Below the pieces are notes generated by a model, which did not search any database, had not been told where the DNA came from, and saw only the letters and a program-made list of their open reading frames with translations. The position numbers were made by a program, and so were the translations under genes. From the UHGV virus genome UHGV-0848487: a DNA stretch of 40,883 nucleotides. One strand, given 5' to 3'. This document shows, one piece after another, positions 34,081 through 40,187 of this stretch. How positions within the stretch are numbered: position 1 is the stretch's first letter; each line of letters begins with the position of its first letter. This DNA is from a virus.

Positions 34081-34577
34081 TGCATCGGGTCCCAAATTCG
34101 TGGAAACGTTGATTGTGCAGTTCCGTAGGCTTTAAGGAAACACCCCAGCCCGTCACCATAGCAACCGTACAAATCTGGCAGATTGTTAATCAGGCACTGG
34201 TTCTCAAGGTTCTGGAACGGCGATTTCTCAGCGGTTGCCGTGAAAGTAATCGTCCAGTTAATGCCGTCTTCGGTGGACTCGGCGATGGTGGACGTAATTG
34301 TTACCTGATAATCCTCAATACCCATGCCGAAGTCGTGCGCCATCCAGAAACTTGACGCACCGCCGTCGACTTTTTCGAGGAACGACAGAAACGCCTGCCG
34401 TCCCAGCGCGGATGTAATCAGGGTTACGCTTATTGGGAACACGTCGTAATATGTGTCACGACCCTGGCGCACCCCGCCACCGGCTAAATCTACACTCCAG
34501 ACGTTGTTACGTCTGGTCATTGAGTAGCCTTTCGATACAATTGGCTTAAGGCTACGTGGGAAATATAAGTCGCTCAT
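34077..34577 (-). CDS. minor tail protein (lambda M-like)
   Basis: 166 aa directly downstream of tape measure gene. Confidence 0.45.
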   Translation of the reverse strand: MSDLYFPRSLKPIVSKGYSMTRRNNVWSVDLAGGGVRQGRDTYYDVFPISVTLITSALGRQAFLSFLEKVDGGASSFWMAHDFGMGIEDYQVTITSTIAESTEDGINWTITFTATAEKSPFQNLENQCLINNLPDLYGCYGDGLGCFLKAYGTAQSTFPRIWDPMQ

Positions 34578-36850
34578 TACTTGAACCCCGGCGCGTTTCT
34601 TGTGGCCTTGCGGGCCTTGCTAATCTTACTGTTGCTGTTCTGCAAAGAGGCCGCCACTTGCTCTTCAATGATGATACGCAAACGGCCTTCATCATCTTGT
34701 TCAGTGGATACGTTGCCAATCTGAGAACTCGTGTTGTTTACGATGGTAACATTAGACGGTCCGGAAGAAGACCCGTTTTGCCCCATAATTTCTTTCATCT
34801 GCTGCGCGGTGCGAACACGCGATGCCCCCGCGGGCATGATAACCTCAGGTTTACCACGTTCGGCGATGGTGGAAGCCTGCCCCGCGGATAACTGACCGCC
34901 CTGTTCACGCGCAGATCTGATAGCGGAAATCTGCGCCATACCCGCCCCAACGGCAGCGGCGGCGGCTACAGGTGCCAGGAACGGACCGACTACAGGGATA
35001 GCTGCCGTGGACTTGTACGCCTCAATAGCTGCGGTGTATGTGGCTATAGTGGCCTGTACGATAGCGAATGCCTTATACGCACCAGAAGCCTCGCCCAAAG
35101 CCGAACCGATGTTTGAGGCCATGTTACCAAAGGCGGTTGCCGTCGCGTCGGCGCGTTTCGTGGCGTACTGCTCGTTGATGGCGTTAAGAGCGGCCTGATA
35201 CTGCTTCTCGCTAATCAAACCCTGCTCGCGGTACTTATCCGCTACCGCCAGTTTCTGCTGTTCCTGGATGTCGAGAAGCTCAAGCTCAGTAGCGTTCTGA
35301 CCCATAATCTGAGCCATGAAGTCGTCACCTTTCTGCTGCTTTTCCTGGGCTTCTTTCTGGCGTTTATCCAGTTCATCTTGTCGTTTTTTCCCGGCTTCGA
35401 GGACGATAGCTGTTTTAGCTTGTTCATATTCTTTCAGGGACAACGCGCCCTGGCTGTAGAACTCTTTTGCCTTAGCCAGTTTCTGCTGTTCCTGCGCGTC
35501 GATAGCCTTTAACTCGTCGTTGTTCTGACGGGCCAAAGTGTCGAGGTAATCTTGCGCCTGATTCCGCAATTGCTCTGCTTTCTTGGCGGCGGCTTTTGCT
35601 GCTTTATCGTCGGTTGTCCCCACCCCACCAGTTCCGCCCTTTTTATTAACAAGGCTGGCTAAGTCTATTTCTTGCTTCTTACGCTCGTTGTACTGCTTGC
35701 GCTGTTCCTCAATTTCTTTCTTACGCTGCTTAGACCTGTTGGTGATGGCCTGTGATTCGGCCTCGGCGCGTTTTATGCTGGCGGCGTATGCGGCGTCAGC
35801 TTCTGCGGTCAGGTTTTTAAATGTGAGTGCTGCCGTTTTGCTCGGATCAAACACGTCTGCGAGGGTCTGACCTAACGCTACGGCGTAATCGTCAATGCGC
35901 TGGAACCACGCAATAACCTCGTGAAACGTCTGCTGGATGTCAGGCAACCATTCACGGATAGCATCCGGTATAGTACCCAGCGAGTCTGACATATCCGCGG
36001 ATTTGTCCTCGGTATCGTATGCCAGGTCGTTTAAGGCATCAGAAATAAACTTGAATGATTCATTGAACAGTGTCACCCAATCCTGGAGCGTGGCGGCTAT
36101 CTCATTAGACGCAATGGCGTCGGTGAGTGCCGAAATAGCGTCTTCTGCCTTCGCGGCTTGCTCACCTACGGCGTCGCCGAAACCGGATTGCGCCACCGCA
36201 AGTACAAGGCCATCAAAGGAGTCCGCCAGGCTCGACAACTGACCGTCTAACGTCTTAGAGCGCGTCTCCATCGCCCCGGCGAAATCGGTGTTGCCGATGT
36301 TTAGCAGGTATTTCTGAATCTCTTCGGAGTTCTTTTTAACCGTGGTGGTGACGCCGCGGAACGTGAACGAAACGGTATCTGCCTGTTGGGAAGACTTGAT
36401 ACCGAACTCTTTCAGTCGCTCAAACTCAAAGGTACTGGCGTCGGCAACCGCCTCAATCATCTGATTAAGGTCTTTACCCATAGCCGCCGCGGTGTTGCCG
36501 TAGGAGATTAACGCCTCTTTGCTTGGGTTCAGGCCGAGGGCCACCAGCTTAGTAAAGCCTTCCACCGCCTGGTTAAGACCATATGGGGTTTCTTTTGCGA
36601 ACTGTTGCAGGACGCTGAAAGCCTTAGCCGCGTTCTCAGCGCTCCCGGTCATTGTGATGAGGCCGGAGTTCAGCTTATCGAAGTTGCGCTGGGAGTCCAC
36701 CAGCGCACTGAACACCTGTTTGGCAGTTTCCAGACTGACAACGGCAGCGGCGGCGGCCCCCGCGGCTTTGGTAAGCCCGTTCAGTTGTGATGTGGTTTTA
36801 TCGACGCCGGTCGATGATACTCGTACGATCAAGCTAGCGGTATCAGCCAT
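34577..36850 (-). CDS. tail tape measure protein
   Basis: About 757 aa, Ala/Gln/Lys/Glu-rich coiled-coil with Gly-rich C-terminal region; preferred ATG 36850. Confidence 0.8.
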   Translation of the reverse strand: MADTASLIVRVSSTGVDKTTSQLNGLTKAAGAAAAAVVSLETAKQVFSALVDSQRNFDKLNSGLITMTGSAENAAKAFSVLQQFAKETPYGLNQAVEGFTKLVALGLNPSKEALISYGNTAAAMGKDLNQMIEAVADASTFEFERLKEFGIKSSQQADTVSFTFRGVTTTVKKNSEEIQKYLLNIGNTDFAGAMETRSKTLDGQLSSLADSFDGLVLAVAQSGFGDAVGEQAAKAEDAISALTDAIASNEIAATLQDWVTLFNESFKFISDALNDLAYDTEDKSADMSDSLGTIPDAIREWLPDIQQTFHEVIAWFQRIDDYAVALGQTLADVFDPSKTAALTFKNLTAEADAAYAASIKRAEAESQAITNRSKQRKKEIEEQRKQYNERKKQEIDLASLVNKKGGTGGVGTTDDKAAKAAAKKAEQLRNQAQDYLDTLARQNNDELKAIDAQEQQKLAKAKEFYSQGALSLKEYEQAKTAIVLEAGKKRQDELDKRQKEAQEKQQKGDDFMAQIMGQNATELELLDIQEQQKLAVADKYREQGLISEKQYQAALNAINEQYATKRADATATAFGNMASNIGSALGEASGAYKAFAIVQATIATYTAAIEAYKSTAAIPVVGPFLAPVAAAAAVGAGMAQISAIRSAREQGGQLSAGQASTIAERGKPEVIMPAGASRVRTAQQMKEIMGQNGSSSGPSNVTIVNNTSSQIGNVSTEQDDEGRLRIIIEEQVAASLQNSNSKISKARKATRNAPGFK

Positions 36851-37232
36851 GATTTCTACCTTCAAAGATTGCTTCTAAGCCCATGATAATGTCTATCTCG
36901 AACAGGCTAAGCTGTTTTTGCGTAACATCGAGATAGGCTTTCAGGTCTTGCCACGTAACGGATTCTCTTGCGAACAATACTACAGCGTCCTCGCGCACGT
37001 GTCGCGTAAACTTAATGTCGCAGTACGTCTCGAAGGTGGATATAAAAAGGGGCGGGCATTCTGGCCCACCCCGTCGCGCTGCACGTTTTTTCTTATCGAT
37101 TACACCCATCGCGATAAGCGCCTGTTCGTGTCCGTCGGCTATAGAATCAAACTCTCTGATTTTATGCTTATCCACAAACTCATAGGTGGCGAACCTGTAC
37201 AGCGCGTCTACTTTTCCTGTAATGCTTTGCGC
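36843..37232 (-). CDS. tail assembly chaperone T-like ORF (candidate -1 frameshift extension of G)
   Basis: Frame is open from 37232, overlaps last 8 codons of the G-like gene in the -1 frame; ends 8 nt into the tape measure gene. Confidence 0.35.
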   Translation of the reverse strand, partial: AQSITGKVDALYRFATYEFVDKHKIREFDSIADGHEQALIAMGVIDKKKRAARRGGPECPPLFISTFETYCDIKFTRHVREDAVVLFARESVTWQDLKAYLDVTQKQLSLFEIDIIMGLEAIFEGRNHG

Positions 37233-37624
37233 TCAGCGTTATGGAACGCTGCTACCTGTGTGCCTAATGCCTTGAACTGGTCCAGCAATTTGTTAAATGC
37301 TTCTTTAGAGAAAGGCTCATCAAAGCTCCAGCCGTTTACGACTTCTGCCGCGAGTTGCCGGTTGAGGTCTTCCGCCAGTTCGTTAATAGCCAGGTTATAT
37401 TCAGTATAGTCGCCGGATTCTTTGGCGGCTTTTTCCAGTTCTTCGAAACGCGCCAACCCGCGACGGTACGAAATAATGAAAGCACGCCCCGCTTTAACGG
37501 CGACATCCGCATCGGGACTTACAACGTTAAGCCATTCACCGGAGTCTTCGCCGTTTGGCAGCAGAATGGGCATCTTCTTGCCTACCAGTGCTTTCTCTTC
37601 GAAATAAAAATCAGAAAGTTTCAT
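37208..37624 (-). CDS. tail assembly chaperone (lambda G-like)
   Basis: 138 aa acidic protein immediately upstream of T-like ORF and tape measure gene. Confidence 0.45.
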   Translation of the reverse strand: MKLSDFYFEEKALVGKKMPILLPNGEDSGEWLNVVSPDADVAVKAGRAFIISYRRGLARFEELEKAAKESGDYTEYNLAINELAEDLNRQLAAEVVNGWSFDEPFSKEAFNKLLDQFKALGTQVAAFHNAERKALQEK

Positions 37625-37732
37625 TCTTTAATCCTTTGGTTAAGAGGTTACAGGTTAACGATAAATGCGCCAGACGGGAACCACCCGCTTTTCGTGTGCG
37701 ACACTAGGCGCAAAATTATTCTACCACAATAC

Positions 37733-37761
37733 TTGCACACCCCAATATAATAGGGTACTAT
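37733..37761 (+). promoter_or_regulatory. sigma70-like promoter TTGCAC-N17-TACTAT driving plus-strand accessory island
   Basis: TTGCACaccccaatataatagggTACTATtcactta; near-identical to the minus-strand early promoters at 15213..15241 and 16507..16535. Confidence 0.55.
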
Positions 37762-37791
37762 TCACTTACACCAACAATGAAGGGGTTTAAA

Positions 37792-37983
37792 ATGTCCAGT
37801 TTACCAGTTTCCTTAATTCTGTTTGCACTGCTCGCTTATTTCGCGCCTTTCCTGGTTGCGTACTTCCGTAACCATAAAGCGAAGTTAGCGATATTCATGG
37901 CTAATCTGTTTCTTGGTTGGGTTCTGCTGCCGTGGGTATTTATCTTAATCTGGGCGTGCAACTCGAATGTCAAAGAGAAGTGA
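37792..37983 (+). CDS. superinfection-immunity-like small membrane protein
   Basis: Preferred ATG 37792 after AAGGGG; AYFAPFLVAYFRNHKAKLAIFMANLFLGWVLLPWVFILIWA resembles the small superinfection immunity protein family pattern. Confidence 0.55.
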   Translation: MSSLPVSLILFALLAYFAPFLVAYFRNHKAKLAIFMANLFLGWVLLPWVFILIWACNSNVKEK

Positions 37984-38020
37984 GCTAGTATAGGACAAAT
38001 CCTAAACACGAGGAATAAGC

Positions 38021-39151
38021 ATGGCCAGGAAGAAAATAACCGACGAACAGTTACAGGAAGAATTGAACGCCGGTATGAAGAATATCGACATCGCCCGTAA
38101 ATACGGCATCTCCGACCGCGTTATTCGTATCCGTAAAGCGAAGCTGGCTAAGAAAGGTGTAGGCCACGGGCGTGACGTTAGTTACCTTGTACCGGACGGC
38201 TACAAGATTAAAGGAACGTCATCACTGGTGGATGAGTTTGGCAACACCAAGTTGCAATGGGTTAAGACCGACACCGATGCCGAACGTCAGGTTGAATTGA
38301 TGAAAGCCGTAATCGAAGGCATGAAGTCGGAGATTACACCAGTTGCACCTGTTAAAGCCGTTCGCGCCAAACGAGACGACAAGCTACTCAACCTTTACAC
38401 TGTGTCTGATTTCCATCTCGGTATGCTGGCCTGGGCTGACGAGAGCGGCGACGACTGGGACATGAAGATTGCGGAAGACCTGTTCTCCCGCTGGTTCGAC
38501 GCAGCGTTCCAGAAAGCACCGGATGCCGGAACAGGAGTTATTAATCTGCTGGGCGACCTTGCGCATTTCGATAGTCTGGACGCCGTTACACCTGCCAGTG
38601 GTCATGTTCTTGACGCTGACACCCGCTATCAGAAACTTGTACGCTACATGATTCGTATGGTCCGCCGTGTCATTGATATGGCTCTCGTTAAACATAAAAA
38701 TGTTCGCTTGCTTATCGTGCAAGGTAACCACGACGAAAGCGGAATGATTTGGTTAGCTGAGATGTTTAGTACGCTGTACGACAATGAGCCGCGTGTGTTC
38801 GTCGATACGTCGCCGGATGTTTACAAGATGGTGCAACACGGCAAAACGACGCTGTTCTTCCATCATGGGCATAAAGCACGATTCGACGCTATCGAACCGG
38901 TTATGATCGCCAAGTTCCGCAAAGCGTTCGGCGAGAGTGTTTACAGCTACGCCCACGTGGGTCACCTGCACCACCAAAAGATTGTAGAAAGCCGTAACAT
39001 GATTGTTGAGCAACACCGCACTCTCGCGGCTAAAGATGCATATGCCTCCCGCGGTGGGTGGATGTCGGGCCGCAGTGCAAACGTAATTACTTATAGCGCC
39101 GAATATGGCGAGGTCGCACGTTTAACTATTTCACCGGAGATGCTTGGATGA
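38021..39151 (+). CDS. HTH domain fused to calcineurin-like metallophosphoesterase
   Basis: N-terminal GMKNIDIARKYGISDRVIRIRK HTH-like; phosphoesterase motifs DFH, LLGDLAHFD, GNHDE, FHHGH, GHLHH in order. Confidence 0.7.
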   Translation: MARKKITDEQLQEELNAGMKNIDIARKYGISDRVIRIRKAKLAKKGVGHGRDVSYLVPDGYKIKGTSSLVDEFGNTKLQWVKTDTDAERQVELMKAVIEGMKSEITPVAPVKAVRAKRDDKLLNLYTVSDFHLGMLAWADESGDDWDMKIAEDLFSRWFDAAFQKAPDAGTGVINLLGDLAHFDSLDAVTPASGHVLDADTRYQKLVRYMIRMVRRVIDMALVKHKNVRLLIVQGNHDESGMIWLAEMFSTLYDNEPRVFVDTSPDVYKMVQHGKTTLFFHHGHKARFDAIEPVMIAKFRKAFGESVYSYAHVGHLHHQKIVESRNMIVEQHRTLAAKDAYASRGGWMSGRSANVITYSAEYGEVARLTISPEMLG

Positions 39152-39633
39152 AAGATATTGTGATTTTCGATTTAGACGGGACATTGGCAGATGGTACTCA
39201 TCGTTTACACCTGCTGCCGAAAGATAACTACGGCGAAACCTGTGCGTGGAAACCATTTAACATGGCGTGCAAAGACGATGCACCCATTAAAGATAACATC
39301 GAACTGTGTAACGCCCTTAATCGTCGCTATGCCGTTATTATCTTAACAGGCCGTAGTGATGACGCGGAAAAAGAAACCAGAATGTGGTTGCAGCGCCACC
39401 GCGTCGAATTTTATCAGTTAATCATGCGCAGCAAACACGACAACAGAAAAGACATCGTAATTAAAGAAGAGGTGTTGCGTGCTATTGGGCCGGAGAGAAT
39501 CTTGTGTGCATTCGACGACTCTCCAGCGGTAATAAAGCATTTCCGCGAACTCGGCATAACCACTCACGCAGTTACTGAATACGACTGTAACGGGAACTCT
39601 ACGCACTTAAAACCACATGGGAGTGATAAATAA
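39148..39633 (+). CDS. HAD-superfamily phosphatase
   Basis: Motif I FDLDGTL, motif II ILTGRS, motif IV FDDS; 161 aa. Confidence 0.7.
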   Translation: MKDIVIFDLDGTLADGTHRLHLLPKDNYGETCAWKPFNMACKDDAPIKDNIELCNALNRRYAVIILTGRSDDAEKETRMWLQRHRVEFYQLIMRSKHDNRKDIVIKEEVLRAIGPERILCAFDDSPAVIKHFRELGITTHAVTEYDCNGNSTHLKPHGSDK

Positions 39634-40187
39634 TGGCTAAGGTAATTATTCTTAATGGTCCTGCGGGCTGCGGGAAAGACACACTTGCTAGGGCGCTGGT
39701 AGAAATGGGCTTTGCGAAGGGTGTCGCCAGTTTCAAGAATCCGATGTTCAATATTGCTATGGCTGCGTTAGGCCAGGATGCTTACCGCGAGTTTCTCGAC
39801 GGCTACGACGACCGGGCGCGGAAAGAAAAGCCAGAGGGTTTCCTTAACGGGTTGTCTCGGCGTCAGTTCATGATTGCCATTTCCGAGCAATTCATTAAAC
39901 CGGTATTCGGTGATGATTATTTCGGTAAGTATCTTGCCGGAAACTTGCCCGACGGCGACGAAGTTTTTGTGGTGTCTGATGGCGGGTTCGCCAGCGAAGT
40001 AGCCCCTATCGTTGCCGCGGGGCATGATGTGAGAATCGTCCGCTTGCACAGAGACGGCCATACGTTTGAAGGGGACAGCCGCGGTTACCTGTACGATATT
40101 GATGGTGTAAAAGATTATGACACCTACATCATACCGGGTTACGTTAAATCGAACGCTATAGGCATTGCTTTAAGATTAGGCTTGTAA
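39633..40187 (+). CDS. P-loop nucleotide kinase (dNMP kinase-like; polynucleotide kinase not excluded)
   Basis: Walker A GPAGCGKDT resembling T4 gp1-type GKDT P-loop; 184 aa. Confidence 0.55.
   Translation: MAKVIILNGPAGCGKDTLARALVEMGFAKGVASFKNPMFNIAMAALGQDAYREFLDGYDDRARKEKPEGFLNGLSRRQFMIAISEQFIKPVFGDDYFGKYLAGNLPDGDEVFVVSDGGFASEVAPIVAAGHDVRIVRLHRDGHTFEGDSRGYLYDIDGVKDYDTYIIPGYVKSNAIGIALRLGL

What the first reader, a model, noticed from the sequence alone, without database searches (positions are those of the whole stretch)
37200..37235. Geometry consistent with programmed -1 frameshift producing a G-T chaperone fusion
The T-like frame is open from 37232 and overlaps the last 8 codons of the G-like gene in the -1 frame; the G gene ends ...CAG GAA AAG TAG, so a -1 slip on GAAAAG adjacent to the stop codon would continue into ...VDALYRF.... 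This matches the conserved G/GT arrangement upstream of tape measure genes in lambda-like tails.
Basis: partly seen in the sequence, partly recalled or inferred. Interest (0 to 1): 0.4.

Follow-up and report, generated by a model that had tools for sequence, protein, structure and literature searches.

The report
Tail chaperone G-T programmed frameshift site
This is the standard -1 ribosomal frameshift that phages with long tails use to make a small amount of a fused G-T tail-assembly chaperone; it is already annotated in the near-identical phage K1G, so the finding is correct but ordinary.

Summary
The window is a Kagunavirus 99.9% identical to Escherichia phage K1G.

On the minus strand, gene G (37624..37208, 138 aa) ends CAG GAA AAG TAG. 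The -1 frame is open from 37232 to 36843 and encodes a T domain (Pfam Phage_TAC_18). Its stop overlaps the tape-measure start.

In 40 distinct relatives (48-99% protein identity), the only invariant bases before the stop are G.AAAG. The stop follows directly in 39 of 40, and the overlap can be as short as 7 nt. The GTG at 37175 is not conserved. Some lineages have no start codon for 108 of 121 T codons, and substitutions just after the G stop are synonymous in the -1 frame.

No stimulatory RNA structure was found. The likely mechanism is a tRNA-Lys slip on A_AAG next to the stop codon.

A side observation may be more interesting. A strong terminator-like hairpin with a U-tract lies inside T (37072..37039), is conserved with covariation, and is not annotated in the records examined.

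The parts
37208..37624 (-). G-like tail assembly chaperone gene (138 aa plus TAG). The ATG is at 37624 and an AAGGA Shine-Dalgarno lies at 37636..37632.
   Evidence: ORF list and translation. Pfam PF08748 Phage_TAC_4 at 26.4 bits, above its cutoff of 21.1. PHROG 15027 and PHROG 313 tail assembly chaperone. Annotated as ORF22A in K1G.
37211..37217 (-). Shift site G_GAA_AAG, a non-canonical heptamer. The conserved core is the tetranucleotide A_AAG at 37214..37211.
   Evidence: G.AAAG are the only invariant bases in the 27 nt before the stop across 13 lineage representatives. In-frame A_AAG is present in 40 of 40 distinct relatives, preceded by GAA (29), GCA (10) or GGA (1). It is the only codon in the overlap whose tRNA can fully re-pair in the -1 frame.
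37208..37210 (-). The G stop codon TAG lies immediately 3' of the shift site and probably acts as the slowly decoded A-site codon (a 'shifty stop').
   Evidence: The stop directly follows A_AAG in 39 of 40 relatives (TAG 32, TAA 8, never TGA). L046 is the one exception, with TTG and then TAG.
37211..37232 (-). Overlap in which both the G frame and the -1 (T) frame are open. The shift must happen within it.
   Evidence: In relatives the overlap ranges from 7 to 205 nt and always contains A_AAG. At 7 nt (L026, L027) only CGCAAAG remains.
36843..37211 (-). T segment: 122 codons in the -1 frame from GTA (Val) to TGA. It has no conserved start codon and is expressed only as the C-terminal part of the 260-aa GT fusion, join(37624..37211, 37211..36843).
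   Evidence: Pfam PF23812 Phage_TAC_18 at 67.5 bits, E 1e-18. PHROG 15027 positions 135-259. The first start-type codon lies +101 to +323 nt downstream in many relatives. Variable columns by codon position in the first 34 codons are 0, 1 and 9.
37039..37072 (-). Terminator-like element inside T. The stem is 37072..37064 paired with 37057..37049 (GGGGTGGGC/GCCCGCCCC), the loop is CAGAAT, and the tail is TTTTTATATC (37048..37039). It is a side finding and is not needed for the frameshift.
   Evidence: Scan. It has the most G-C pairs of any such site in the window and is the only strong one inside a gene on its sense strand. It recurs with different stem sequences in about 6 lineages. It is more stable than 95-99% of synonymous recodings. 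Five of 9 pairs are compensated, and 0 of 500 shuffles reach the observed score.
34577..36850 (-). Tape measure protein gene. Its ATG (36850) overlaps the T stop in the sequence ATGGCTGA.
   Evidence: PHROG 1538 at E 7.5e-193 and Pfam TMP_3. K1G annotation. The ATGGC-TGA overlap is kept in Shashou, Jersey, Shemara and 37P2.

Best explanation
[quoted passage not shown] Most ribosomes read ...CAG GAA AAG, meet UAG and release the 138-aa G protein. A minority slip back one base while tRNA-Lys (anticodon UUU) sits on AAG. The tRNA re-pairs with the overlapping AAA, GUA (Val) enters the A site, and translation continues for 122 codons in the -1 frame to yield the 260-aa fusion ...ALQEK-VDALYRF...NHG. 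By analogy with lambda gpG and gpGT, the G part binds the tape measure protein and the T part recruits the tail tube protein. The low shift rate therefore fixes a high G:GT ratio.

Shown here: the geometry, the homology, the invariance of A_AAG, the lack of any conserved start codon for T, coding selection in the -1 frame beginning at the G stop, and the absence of a stimulatory RNA structure.

Inferred: the slip is a single-tRNA event in the P site, favoured by slow decoding of the adjacent stop codon and possibly by the wobble-prone tRNA reading the preceding GNA codon. The efficiency (expected to be a few percent) and the protein-binding roles are also inferred.
For: Frames and junction were read directly from the sequence. 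The window is 99.9% identical to K1G. K1G, fKuEco01 and Shemara annotate a two-piece joined CDS. The deposited fusion proteins have the junctions ...QEK|VDALY... and ...MEK|VKALY.... G and T match chaperone families, and PHROG 15027 models the fusion.

Across 40 distinct relatives, in-frame A_AAG is invariant, the -1 frame is always open for about 121-122 codons past the slip, and the overlap shrinks to 7 nt in two of them. The only invariant bases upstream of the stop are G.AAAG, even though the encoded residue changes between Glu, Gly and Ala.

The GTG at 37175 is not conserved. The first ATG, GTG or TTG in the T frame is 101-323 nt downstream in many lineages. In the Kagunavirus clade, 9 of the 10 variable columns in the 34 codons after the G stop fall on the third position of the -1 frame, and 9 of the 10 changes are synonymous.

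The phage encodes no tRNA, so the host's single tRNA-Lys decodes the site. The review PMC5009743 documents A_AAG and NNA_AAG as -1 shift sites in E. coli and G_GGA_AAG as highly shift-prone. PMC10861913 describes single-tRNA slippage on tetramers next to slowly decoded codons.
Against: I found no experimental detection of GT for any Guernseyvirinae phage. All database annotations are predictions. G_GAA_AAG is not a canonical X_XXY_YYZ heptamer, and the Shashou genome paper states that there is 'no canonical slippery sequence' at the identical site. No downstream stimulatory structure exists: single-sequence z-scores are -0.09 and +0.24, and the consensus fold is -0.85 kcal/mol with no covariation. 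No conserved upstream Shine-Dalgarno-like element exists, so efficiency may be low. One relative (L046) has a sense codon (TTG) between A_AAG and the stop, so the adjacent stop is not strictly required.
Confidence: 0.85

Rival explanations
1. The frameshift and its product are the same, but the mechanism differs. The slip happens while tRNA-Lys is in the A site. It is either a tandem slip with tRNA-Glu on G_GAA_AAG, with a G:U pair at the middle position after the shift, or the 'hexanucleotide' NNA_AAG route, in which a wobble-prone P-site tRNA helps. In this version the adjacent stop codon plays no kinetic role and is there only because G ends at that point.
For: G at position -6 and A at position -4 are invariant (GNA AAG), which points to a role for the 5' codon. 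RP180 has the canonical G_GGA_AAG. The review and PMC10861913 describe A-site slippage at A_AAG helped by a wobble-prone tRNA on the preceding codon. L046 keeps A_AAG without an adjacent stop. PRFect lists an XXYYYY 'twofour' motif class, which GGAAAA would fit by my reading of the name.
Against: In 10 of the 40 relatives the 5' codon is GCA, and its tRNA cannot re-pair with the -1 codon (CGC, AGC or GGC), so a tandem slip cannot be general. The stop is directly adjacent in 39 of 40 relatives across about 50% protein divergence. That would be hard to explain if it were irrelevant.
Confidence: 0.3
2. T is a separate protein. It would be translated independently from the GTG at 37175, or by re-initiation after termination at the G stop, and no fusion would be made.
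For: Several GenBank records annotate two separate genes: RP180, Bas74, Jersey and Shashou. Gene callers produce stand-alone T products of 87-137 aa.
Against: The GTG is replaced by non-start codons even within Kagunavirus, and only a weak GAG lies 3 nt upstream of it. L036 and L037 have no start-type codon for 108 of 121 T codons. The peptide V-x-A-L-Y-x-[FY]-A upstream of the GTG is conserved. The start positions chosen by annotators differ from record to record.
Confidence: 0.04
3. The frame change comes from transcriptional slippage by RNA polymerase on the A-run, not from ribosomal slippage.
For: The site contains a short A-run (AAAA).
Against: The run is only 4 A here and 3 A in the GCA AAG lineages. 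From my own knowledge, that is much shorter than the homopolymer runs known to cause productive transcriptional slippage. What is conserved is the reading-frame register of A_AAG, not the length of the run.
Confidence: 0.02
4. The -1 frame ORF is a decaying remnant and is not expressed.
For: None beyond the lack of a start codon.
Against: There is a strong Pfam match (E 1e-18). The frame is open in all 40 relatives at a constant length of about 121-122 codons. The substitution pattern shows purifying selection: 0, 1, 9 for codons 1-34 and 1, 2, 16 for codons 35-121.
Confidence: 0.01

Closest known systems
Phage lambda gpG / gpGT (Levin, Hendrix and Casjens 1993; Xu, Hendrix and Duda 2004, 2013, 2014, as cited in review PMC5009743)
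   Same: Two overlapping ORFs lie just upstream of the tape measure gene. The second is in the -1 frame and has no start codon of its own. The shift site lies near the 3' end of G and ends in A_AAG. From my own knowledge, lambda does not need an RNA structure to stimulate the shift, which matches the absence of one here. The expected outcome is abundant G and rare GT.
   Different: Lambda uses the canonical heptamer G_GGA_AAG. Here the site is G_GAA_AAG, or only GCA_AAG in relatives, so the conserved core is just the tetranucleotide. The shift codon is the very last sense codon, directly against the stop. The protein families differ from lambda's (Phage_TAC_4 and Phage_TAC_18). An opposite-strand island of 4 genes separates the tail tube gene from G.
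Escherichia phage K1G ORF22A/ORF22B (GU196277, NC_027993), and Salmonella phage Shemara CPT_Shemara_024/025
   Same: K1G is essentially the same locus at 99.9% identity. Both phages have a joined CDS with the junction at ...EK|V.
   Different: The window's G differs from K1G's by one residue, Ser instead of Ala at position 52. These annotations are predictions with no experimental support that I could find.
A_AAG / NNA_AAG -1 shift sites in E. coli, such as IS1222 G_CGA_AAG (review PMC5009743)
   Same: A single tRNA-Lys slips from AAG to AAA. Efficiency depends on the 5' codon. The host has a single tRNA-Lys.
   Different: No stimulatory structure was found here. Instead, a stop codon directly follows the shift codon.
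Transcription termination site mapped after the tail assembly chaperone gene in Listeria phage CKA15 (PMC12282133). This is relevant to the side finding only.
   Same: A terminator is placed right after the chaperone gene in the tail module.
   Different: In CKA15 the site was mapped experimentally in a myovirus. Here it is predicted only, and it lies embedded in the T coding frame.

Membership tests
Lambda-type G/GT tail assembly chaperone pair made by programmed frameshift | Two ORFs lie immediately upstream of the tape measure gene and downstream of the tail tube gene, on the same strand as the tape measure gene. | tested here: met
   The gene order is G 37624..37208, T ..36843, TMP 36850..34577, all on the minus strand. 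The tube gene (Phage_tube_2) starts beyond 40758 on the same strand. It is separated from G by a plus-strand island at 37777..40187.
Lambda-type G/GT tail assembly chaperone pair made by programmed frameshift | The second ORF overlaps the 3' end of the first in the -1 frame. | tested here: met
   There is a 22-nt overlap, with the -1 frame open from 37232. The same holds in all 40 relatives.
Lambda-type G/GT tail assembly chaperone pair made by programmed frameshift | The second ORF has no start codon or ribosome-binding site of its own. | tested here: met
   The GTG at 37175 is not conserved. The first start-type codon lies up to 323 nt downstream in relatives. Coding selection begins at the G stop.
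Lambda-type G/GT tail assembly chaperone pair made by programmed frameshift | A canonical X_XXY_YYZ slippery heptamer lies in the overlap. | tested here: not met
   The window has G_GAA_AAG. Only RP180 has G_GGA_AAG, and 10 of the 40 relatives have NGCA_AAG. A slippery tetranucleotide, A_AAG, is present in all of them.
Lambda-type G/GT tail assembly chaperone pair made by programmed frameshift | The proteins belong to tail assembly chaperone families. | tested here: met
   PF08748 and PF23812 both score above their cutoffs, and PHROG 15027 models the fusion. The structure check failed for lack of depth: mean pLDDT was 59.8. There were no PDB or NCBIfam matches.
Lambda-type G/GT tail assembly chaperone pair made by programmed frameshift | The fusion protein is actually made at a low fixed ratio and is needed for tail assembly. 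| not testable with these tools
   This needs proteomics of infected cells, reporters and phage genetics.
A_AAG / NNA_AAG single-tRNA -1 shift sites of E. coli | In-frame A_AAG is decoded by the host's single tRNA-Lys(UUU). | tested here: met
   In-frame A_AAG lies at 37214..37211. The phage encodes no tRNA. That E. coli has a single tRNA-Lys comes from review PMC5009743.
A_AAG / NNA_AAG single-tRNA -1 shift sites of E. coli | The 5' codon is read by a wobble-prone tRNA. | tested here: inconclusive
   The 5' codon is always GNA (GAA, GGA or GCA). From my own knowledge, all three are read by tRNAs with a modified U34. The effect on shifting was not measured.
'Shifty stop' frameshift sites | A stop codon lies immediately 3' of the shift codon. 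| tested here: met
   TAG at 37210..37208. The stop is adjacent in 39 of 40 relatives. L046 is the exception. The kinetic role of the stop was not tested.
Intrinsic (Rho-independent) terminators (side finding at 37072..37039) | A G+C-rich hairpin is followed by a U-tract on the transcribed strand. | tested here: met
   The stem has 9 pairs, 8 of them G-C, followed by TTTTT. It is the strongest such site in the window. It is conserved with covariation.
Intrinsic (Rho-independent) terminators (side finding at 37072..37039) | It causes transcript 3' ends in vivo or in vitro. | not testable with these tools
   This needs Term-seq, ONT-cappable-seq or in vitro transcription.

The most novel reading that the evidence does not exclude
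The conserved hairpin and U-tract inside the T frame (37072..37039) may be a partial intrinsic terminator. It sits in the only RNA between the G stop and the tape-measure start, a stretch that is free of ribosomes on most passes. It could therefore step expression down from the abundant G protein to the low-copy tape measure and distal tail proteins. A lead ribosome that has frameshifted into T would melt the hairpin, so read-through into the tape measure gene could be partly coupled to GT synthesis. The -1 slip would then influence transcription as well as the G:GT ratio.
Probability: 0.12. Interest if true: 0.6.

Novelty: already known. Interest (0 to 1): 0.2.

Why it matters
For the frameshift itself, the value is mainly in annotation quality. 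GenBank records of this phage subfamily disagree: some have a joined CDS, others have two separate genes with arbitrary starts, and one paper states that no slippery sequence exists. The comparative evidence here settles the matter. The site is A_AAG followed by a stop, which is non-canonical but invariant, so all Guernseyvirinae records could be annotated consistently. It is also a clean natural example of a tetranucleotide next to a stop codon serving as a programmed -1 site without any RNA structure. The terminator-like hairpin inside T, if functional, would add a transcriptional layer to the control of tail-protein stoichiometry.

Tried and rejected
1. An exact look-up of six window-derived fusion variants found nothing, because the window's G differs from K1G's by one residue. 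Repeating it with K1G and Shemara sequences succeeded.
2. A homology search with the fusion returned only 4 hits and no fusion proteins, so I switched to DNA-level loci.
3. A downstream stimulatory RNA structure was tested by single-sequence folding and consensus folding. All were negative, so it is rejected.
4. An upstream Shine-Dalgarno-like stimulator is rejected. AGGA overlaps the site only in Kagunavirus, and nothing upstream of G.AAAG is conserved.
5. Other slip sites in the overlap, such as CGC AAA G, are rejected. They re-pair poorly and fall outside the open overlap in relatives with 16-nt or 7-nt overlaps.
6. Counting variable columns by codon position across deep lineages was uninformative because of saturation. 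The Kagunavirus clade was used instead.
7. The structure prediction for G gave a mean pLDDT of 59.8 from 4 sequences. That is too poor for a fold search, so none was run.
8. PDB sequence search and NCBIfam gave no hits.
9. The Jerseyvirinae taxonomy paper (PMID 25663216) is not held. Searches for Kagunavirus plus frameshift and for the tetra-/hepta-nucleotide motif paper found nothing.
10. The hairpin in T was considered as a frameshift stimulator and rejected, because it lies 136 nt downstream of the slip site.

Full report
WHAT IS THERE. The genes in this part of the window lie on the minus strand. A 138-aa ORF runs from the ATG at 37624, preceded by an AAGGA Shine-Dalgarno at 37636..37632, to a TAG at 37210..37208. 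It ends ...GCA TTA CAG GAA AAG TAG. In the -1 frame there is a TGA at 37235..37233. That frame is then open from 37232 to a TGA at 36845..36843 and reads AQSITGK VDALYRFATYEFVDKHK.... The T stop overlaps the ATG of the next gene (ATGGCTGA, ATG at 36850), which is the tape measure protein gene (PHROG 1538, E 7.5e-193). The only nuance is that the overlap is 22 nt, which is seven codons plus one base.

IDENTITY. The 901 bases around the site are 99.9% identical to Escherichia phage K1G (Kagunavirus, Guernseyvirinae), and 104 phage records match. The upstream protein matches Pfam Phage_TAC_4 above its cutoff, and the -1 frame product matches Phage_TAC_18 (67.5 bits, E 1e-18). PHROG 15027 is a 259-position 'tail assembly chaperone' family. 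The G protein matches its positions 1-138 and the T frame matches positions 135-259, so the family models the fusion. The tail tube gene (Phage_tube_2) lies further upstream on the same strand, but a plus-strand island of four genes (37777..40187) separates it from G.

IT IS ALREADY ANNOTATED. The original K1G GenBank record (GU196277), its RefSeq copy and phage fKuEco01 all carry a two-piece joined CDS ('ORF22B') of 782 nt spanning both frames. The Cornellvirus Shemara has a 'tail assembly chaperone frameshift product'. Exact look-up shows where the depositors put the junction. ADA82267.1 / YP_009168804.1 / QNO11738.1 read ...ALQEK|VDALYRF..., and Shemara QEA10354.1 reads ...SLMEK|VKALY.... 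Junctions placed one to five codons earlier are not in the database. Annotation is inconsistent, however. RP180, Bas74, Jersey and Shashou list two separate genes whose T starts differ. [quoted passage not shown]

COMPARATIVE TEST OF THE SITE. I collected 32 IMG/VR loci, 8 GenBank regions and 3 Logan contigs encoding relatives of G at 48-99% identity. This gave 40 distinct sequences of the Guernseyvirinae type. In all 40 there is an in-frame A_AAG at the end of G, and it lies inside the open -1 window. The preceding codon is GAA (29), GCA (10) or GGA (1). In RP180 this makes G_GGA_AAG, which is lambda's heptamer. The stop follows immediately in 39 of 40 (TAG 32, TAA 8, never TGA). Across 13 lineage representatives, the only invariant bases in the 27 nt before the stop are G.AAAG. 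Everything else varies, including the amino acid encoded by GNA, so the constraint acts on the nucleotides. The length of the overlap ranges from 205 nt down to 7 nt. In L026 and L027 a -1 frame TAA leaves only CGCAAAG, which pins the shift to A_AAG. Within the window's own overlap, AAG-to-AAA is the only codon allowing full re-pairing. As background, in-frame A_AAG makes up 0.28% of codons, AAG is 44% of Lys codons, A is 19% of third positions, and only this gene among 39 long ORFs ends in A AAG followed by a stop. More distant homologues (Vibrio, Pamexvirus, Serratia and Stenotrophomonas phages) keep the two-ORF layout but have different 3' ends.

IS T TRANSLATED ON ITS OWN? No. The GTG at 37175 is GTC or GTT in 6 of the 16 Kagunavirus sequences and GTC, GTA, ATT or ATA in most of the other lineages. 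The first ATG, GTG or TTG in the T frame is 101 nt past the G stop in many lineages, 149-170 nt in some, and 323 nt (codon 108 of 121) in L036 and L037. The peptide immediately after the slip, K-V-x-A-L-[YC]-x-[FY]-A-x-[WY], is conserved in nearly all lineages (Shashou has Leu at the Y/C position). Within the Kagunavirus clade, the 34 codons between the G stop and the first conserved ATG have variable columns at -1 frame codon positions 1, 2 and 3 of 0, 1 and 9. Nine of the ten changes are synonymous. Read in the other two frames, the same changes would hit positions 1 or 2. The T frame is thus under protein-coding selection from the G stop onward and has no start codon. A fusion to G explains that.

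STIMULATORS. The 58 and 98 nt downstream of the stop fold no better than shuffles (z = +0.24 and -0.09). The consensus fold of 16 lineages is -0.85 kcal/mol with three invariant pairs and no covariation. Nothing upstream of G.AAAG is conserved. From my own knowledge, lambda's G-T site also works without a stimulatory structure.

MECHANISM. The review PMC5009743 makes several relevant points. The minimal -1 site is a Z_ZZN tetranucleotide. A_AAG is the best-studied case in E. coli, and its efficiency depends on the two 5' bases and on the wobble propensity of the tRNA reading the 5' codon. G_CGA_AAG is used by IS1222, G_GGA_AAG is highly shift-prone, and E. coli has a single tRNA-Lys for both AAA and AAG. 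PMC10861913 distinguishes two routes: P-site slippage on a tetramer next to a slowly decoded A-site codon, and A-site slippage at A_AAG aided by a wobble-prone upstream tRNA. The phage encodes no tRNA. My preferred model is that peptidyl-tRNA-Lys in the P site on AAG, facing UAG in the A site, slips to AAA, after which GUA (Val) is decoded. The near-universal adjacent stop favours this. The invariant GNA and the L046 exception (GCA AAG TTG TAG, with the -1 frame still reading K-V-V-A-L-Y) leave room for the A-site or tandem variant. Tandem slippage cannot be general, because tRNA-Ala on GCA cannot re-pair with the -1 codon. The product is the same in either case. The function of G and GT is inferred from lambda: G binds the tape measure protein, T binds the tube protein, the ratio is about 30:1, and neither protein is in virions.

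SIDE FINDING. A scan for terminators around the site found GGGGTGGGC-CAGAAT-GCCCGCCCC followed by TTTTTATATC on the sense strand inside T at 37072..37039. This is 136 nt after the G stop and about 190 nt before the tape-measure ATG. It has more G-C pairs (8) than any other terminator-like site in the 40-kb window. Six of the eight strongest sites are intergenic, and this is the only strong one inside a gene on its sense strand. The central GGGCC...TGCCC is forced by the peptide G-P-E-C-P, but the stem extends beyond that. It differs between lineages while staying paired: AAAGGGGC/GCCCCTTT in L023 and L048, GAGGGGC/GCCCCTC in L022, a longer A/T-extended stem in L025, and a two-part stem in L046. 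Each is followed by a T-run. The real sequence is more stable than 95-99% of synonymous recodings in 8 of 16 sequences tested, which represent about 6 independent lineages. Five of nine pairs show changes on both sides, there are 20 compensated cells against 8.3 +/- 2.1 in shuffles (0 of 500), and the true register beats all slid registers. It is weak or absent in Shashou, 37P2 and L047, and in the Jersey and Cornellvirus lineages that lack the Cys codon. No annotated record I examined marks it. A transcription termination site after the tail assembly chaperone gene has been mapped experimentally in Listeria phage CKA15 (PMC12282133). My working idea is that it acts as a partial terminator or a 3' stabiliser in RNA that most ribosomes never enter. 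That would lower expression of the tape measure and distal tail genes relative to G. This idea is untested. Caveats are that the structure was derived from one of the aligned sequences and that the lineages are related, so the shuffle control overstates significance.

VERDICT. It is already known, being annotated in the near-identical K1G since its deposition, and it follows the lambda G/GT paradigm. What this analysis adds is the comparative evidence that the site is the non-canonical A_AAG plus stop, which resolves the conflicting annotations. It also adds the conserved terminator-like hairpin inside T as a lead worth an experiment.

Noticed in passing
window 37039..37072, minus strand (inside the T frame): A strong terminator-like hairpin (9 bp, 8 of them G-C) with a TTTTT tail lies on the sense strand, 136 nt after the G stop. 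It is the strongest such site in the window. It is conserved with compensatory changes in about 6 lineages and is more stable than 95-99% of synonymous recodings. None of the annotated records I examined marks it. It may be a partial terminator that lowers tape measure and distal tail gene expression relative to G.
   Followed up: partly
window 37777..40187, plus strand: An opposite-strand island of four genes splits the tail module between the tube gene and G. The genes are a superinfection-immunity-like protein (68 aa), a DNA repair exonuclease/phosphatase, a polynucleotide kinase-like protein and an ATP-binding protein. Its content differs between genera: there are one or two genes in Shemara, Jersey and 37P2, and other genes in Shashou. 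This suggests a hot spot for cargo insertion, and it means that G-T-TMP needs its own promoter. The simple sigma-70 scan found none on the minus strand in 37625..37776.
   Followed up: partly
L046:1900-1960 (Logan SRR27755633 contig): This is a natural variant in which the G stop is displaced by one codon (GCA AAG TTG TAG) while the -1 frame still reads K-V-V-A-L-Y. It is the only one of 40 relatives without a stop directly after A_AAG, and it offers a natural test of whether the adjacent stop is needed.
   Followed up: partly
window 36843..36850, and the same position in L038-L041: The T stop and the tape measure start overlap as ATGGCTGA in every genus checked. Few ribosomes translate T, so the tape measure gene presumably relies on its own ribosome-binding site (GAAGG, 9 nt upstream) rather than on translational coupling.
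   Followed up: no
L044:1690-1735 (Serratia phage Tlacuache) and L042:1650-1695 (Vibrio phage 1.207.B): Distant homologues of G keep the G / -1 ORF / tape measure layout but have different candidate shift sites: an in-frame CGA AAG (as in IS1222) 9 nt before the stop in Tlacuache, and GCT TTT TTC in the Vibrio phage. Neither record annotates a frameshift.
   Followed up: no
GenBank records RP180, Bas74, Jersey and Shashou; database proteins P0011, P0022 and P0029: The T frame is annotated as a stand-alone gene with starts that differ from record to record (5, 32 or more nt after the G stop, or even inside G). This is a sign of gene-caller artefacts. The Shashou paper denies a slippery sequence at a site identical to the window's.
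   Followed up: yes
window 37469..37471 (G codon 52): The window's G protein has Ser at residue 52 where K1G has Ala (AFIISYRRG versus AFIIAYRRG). This is why the exact look-up of window-derived fusions failed.
   Followed up: yes
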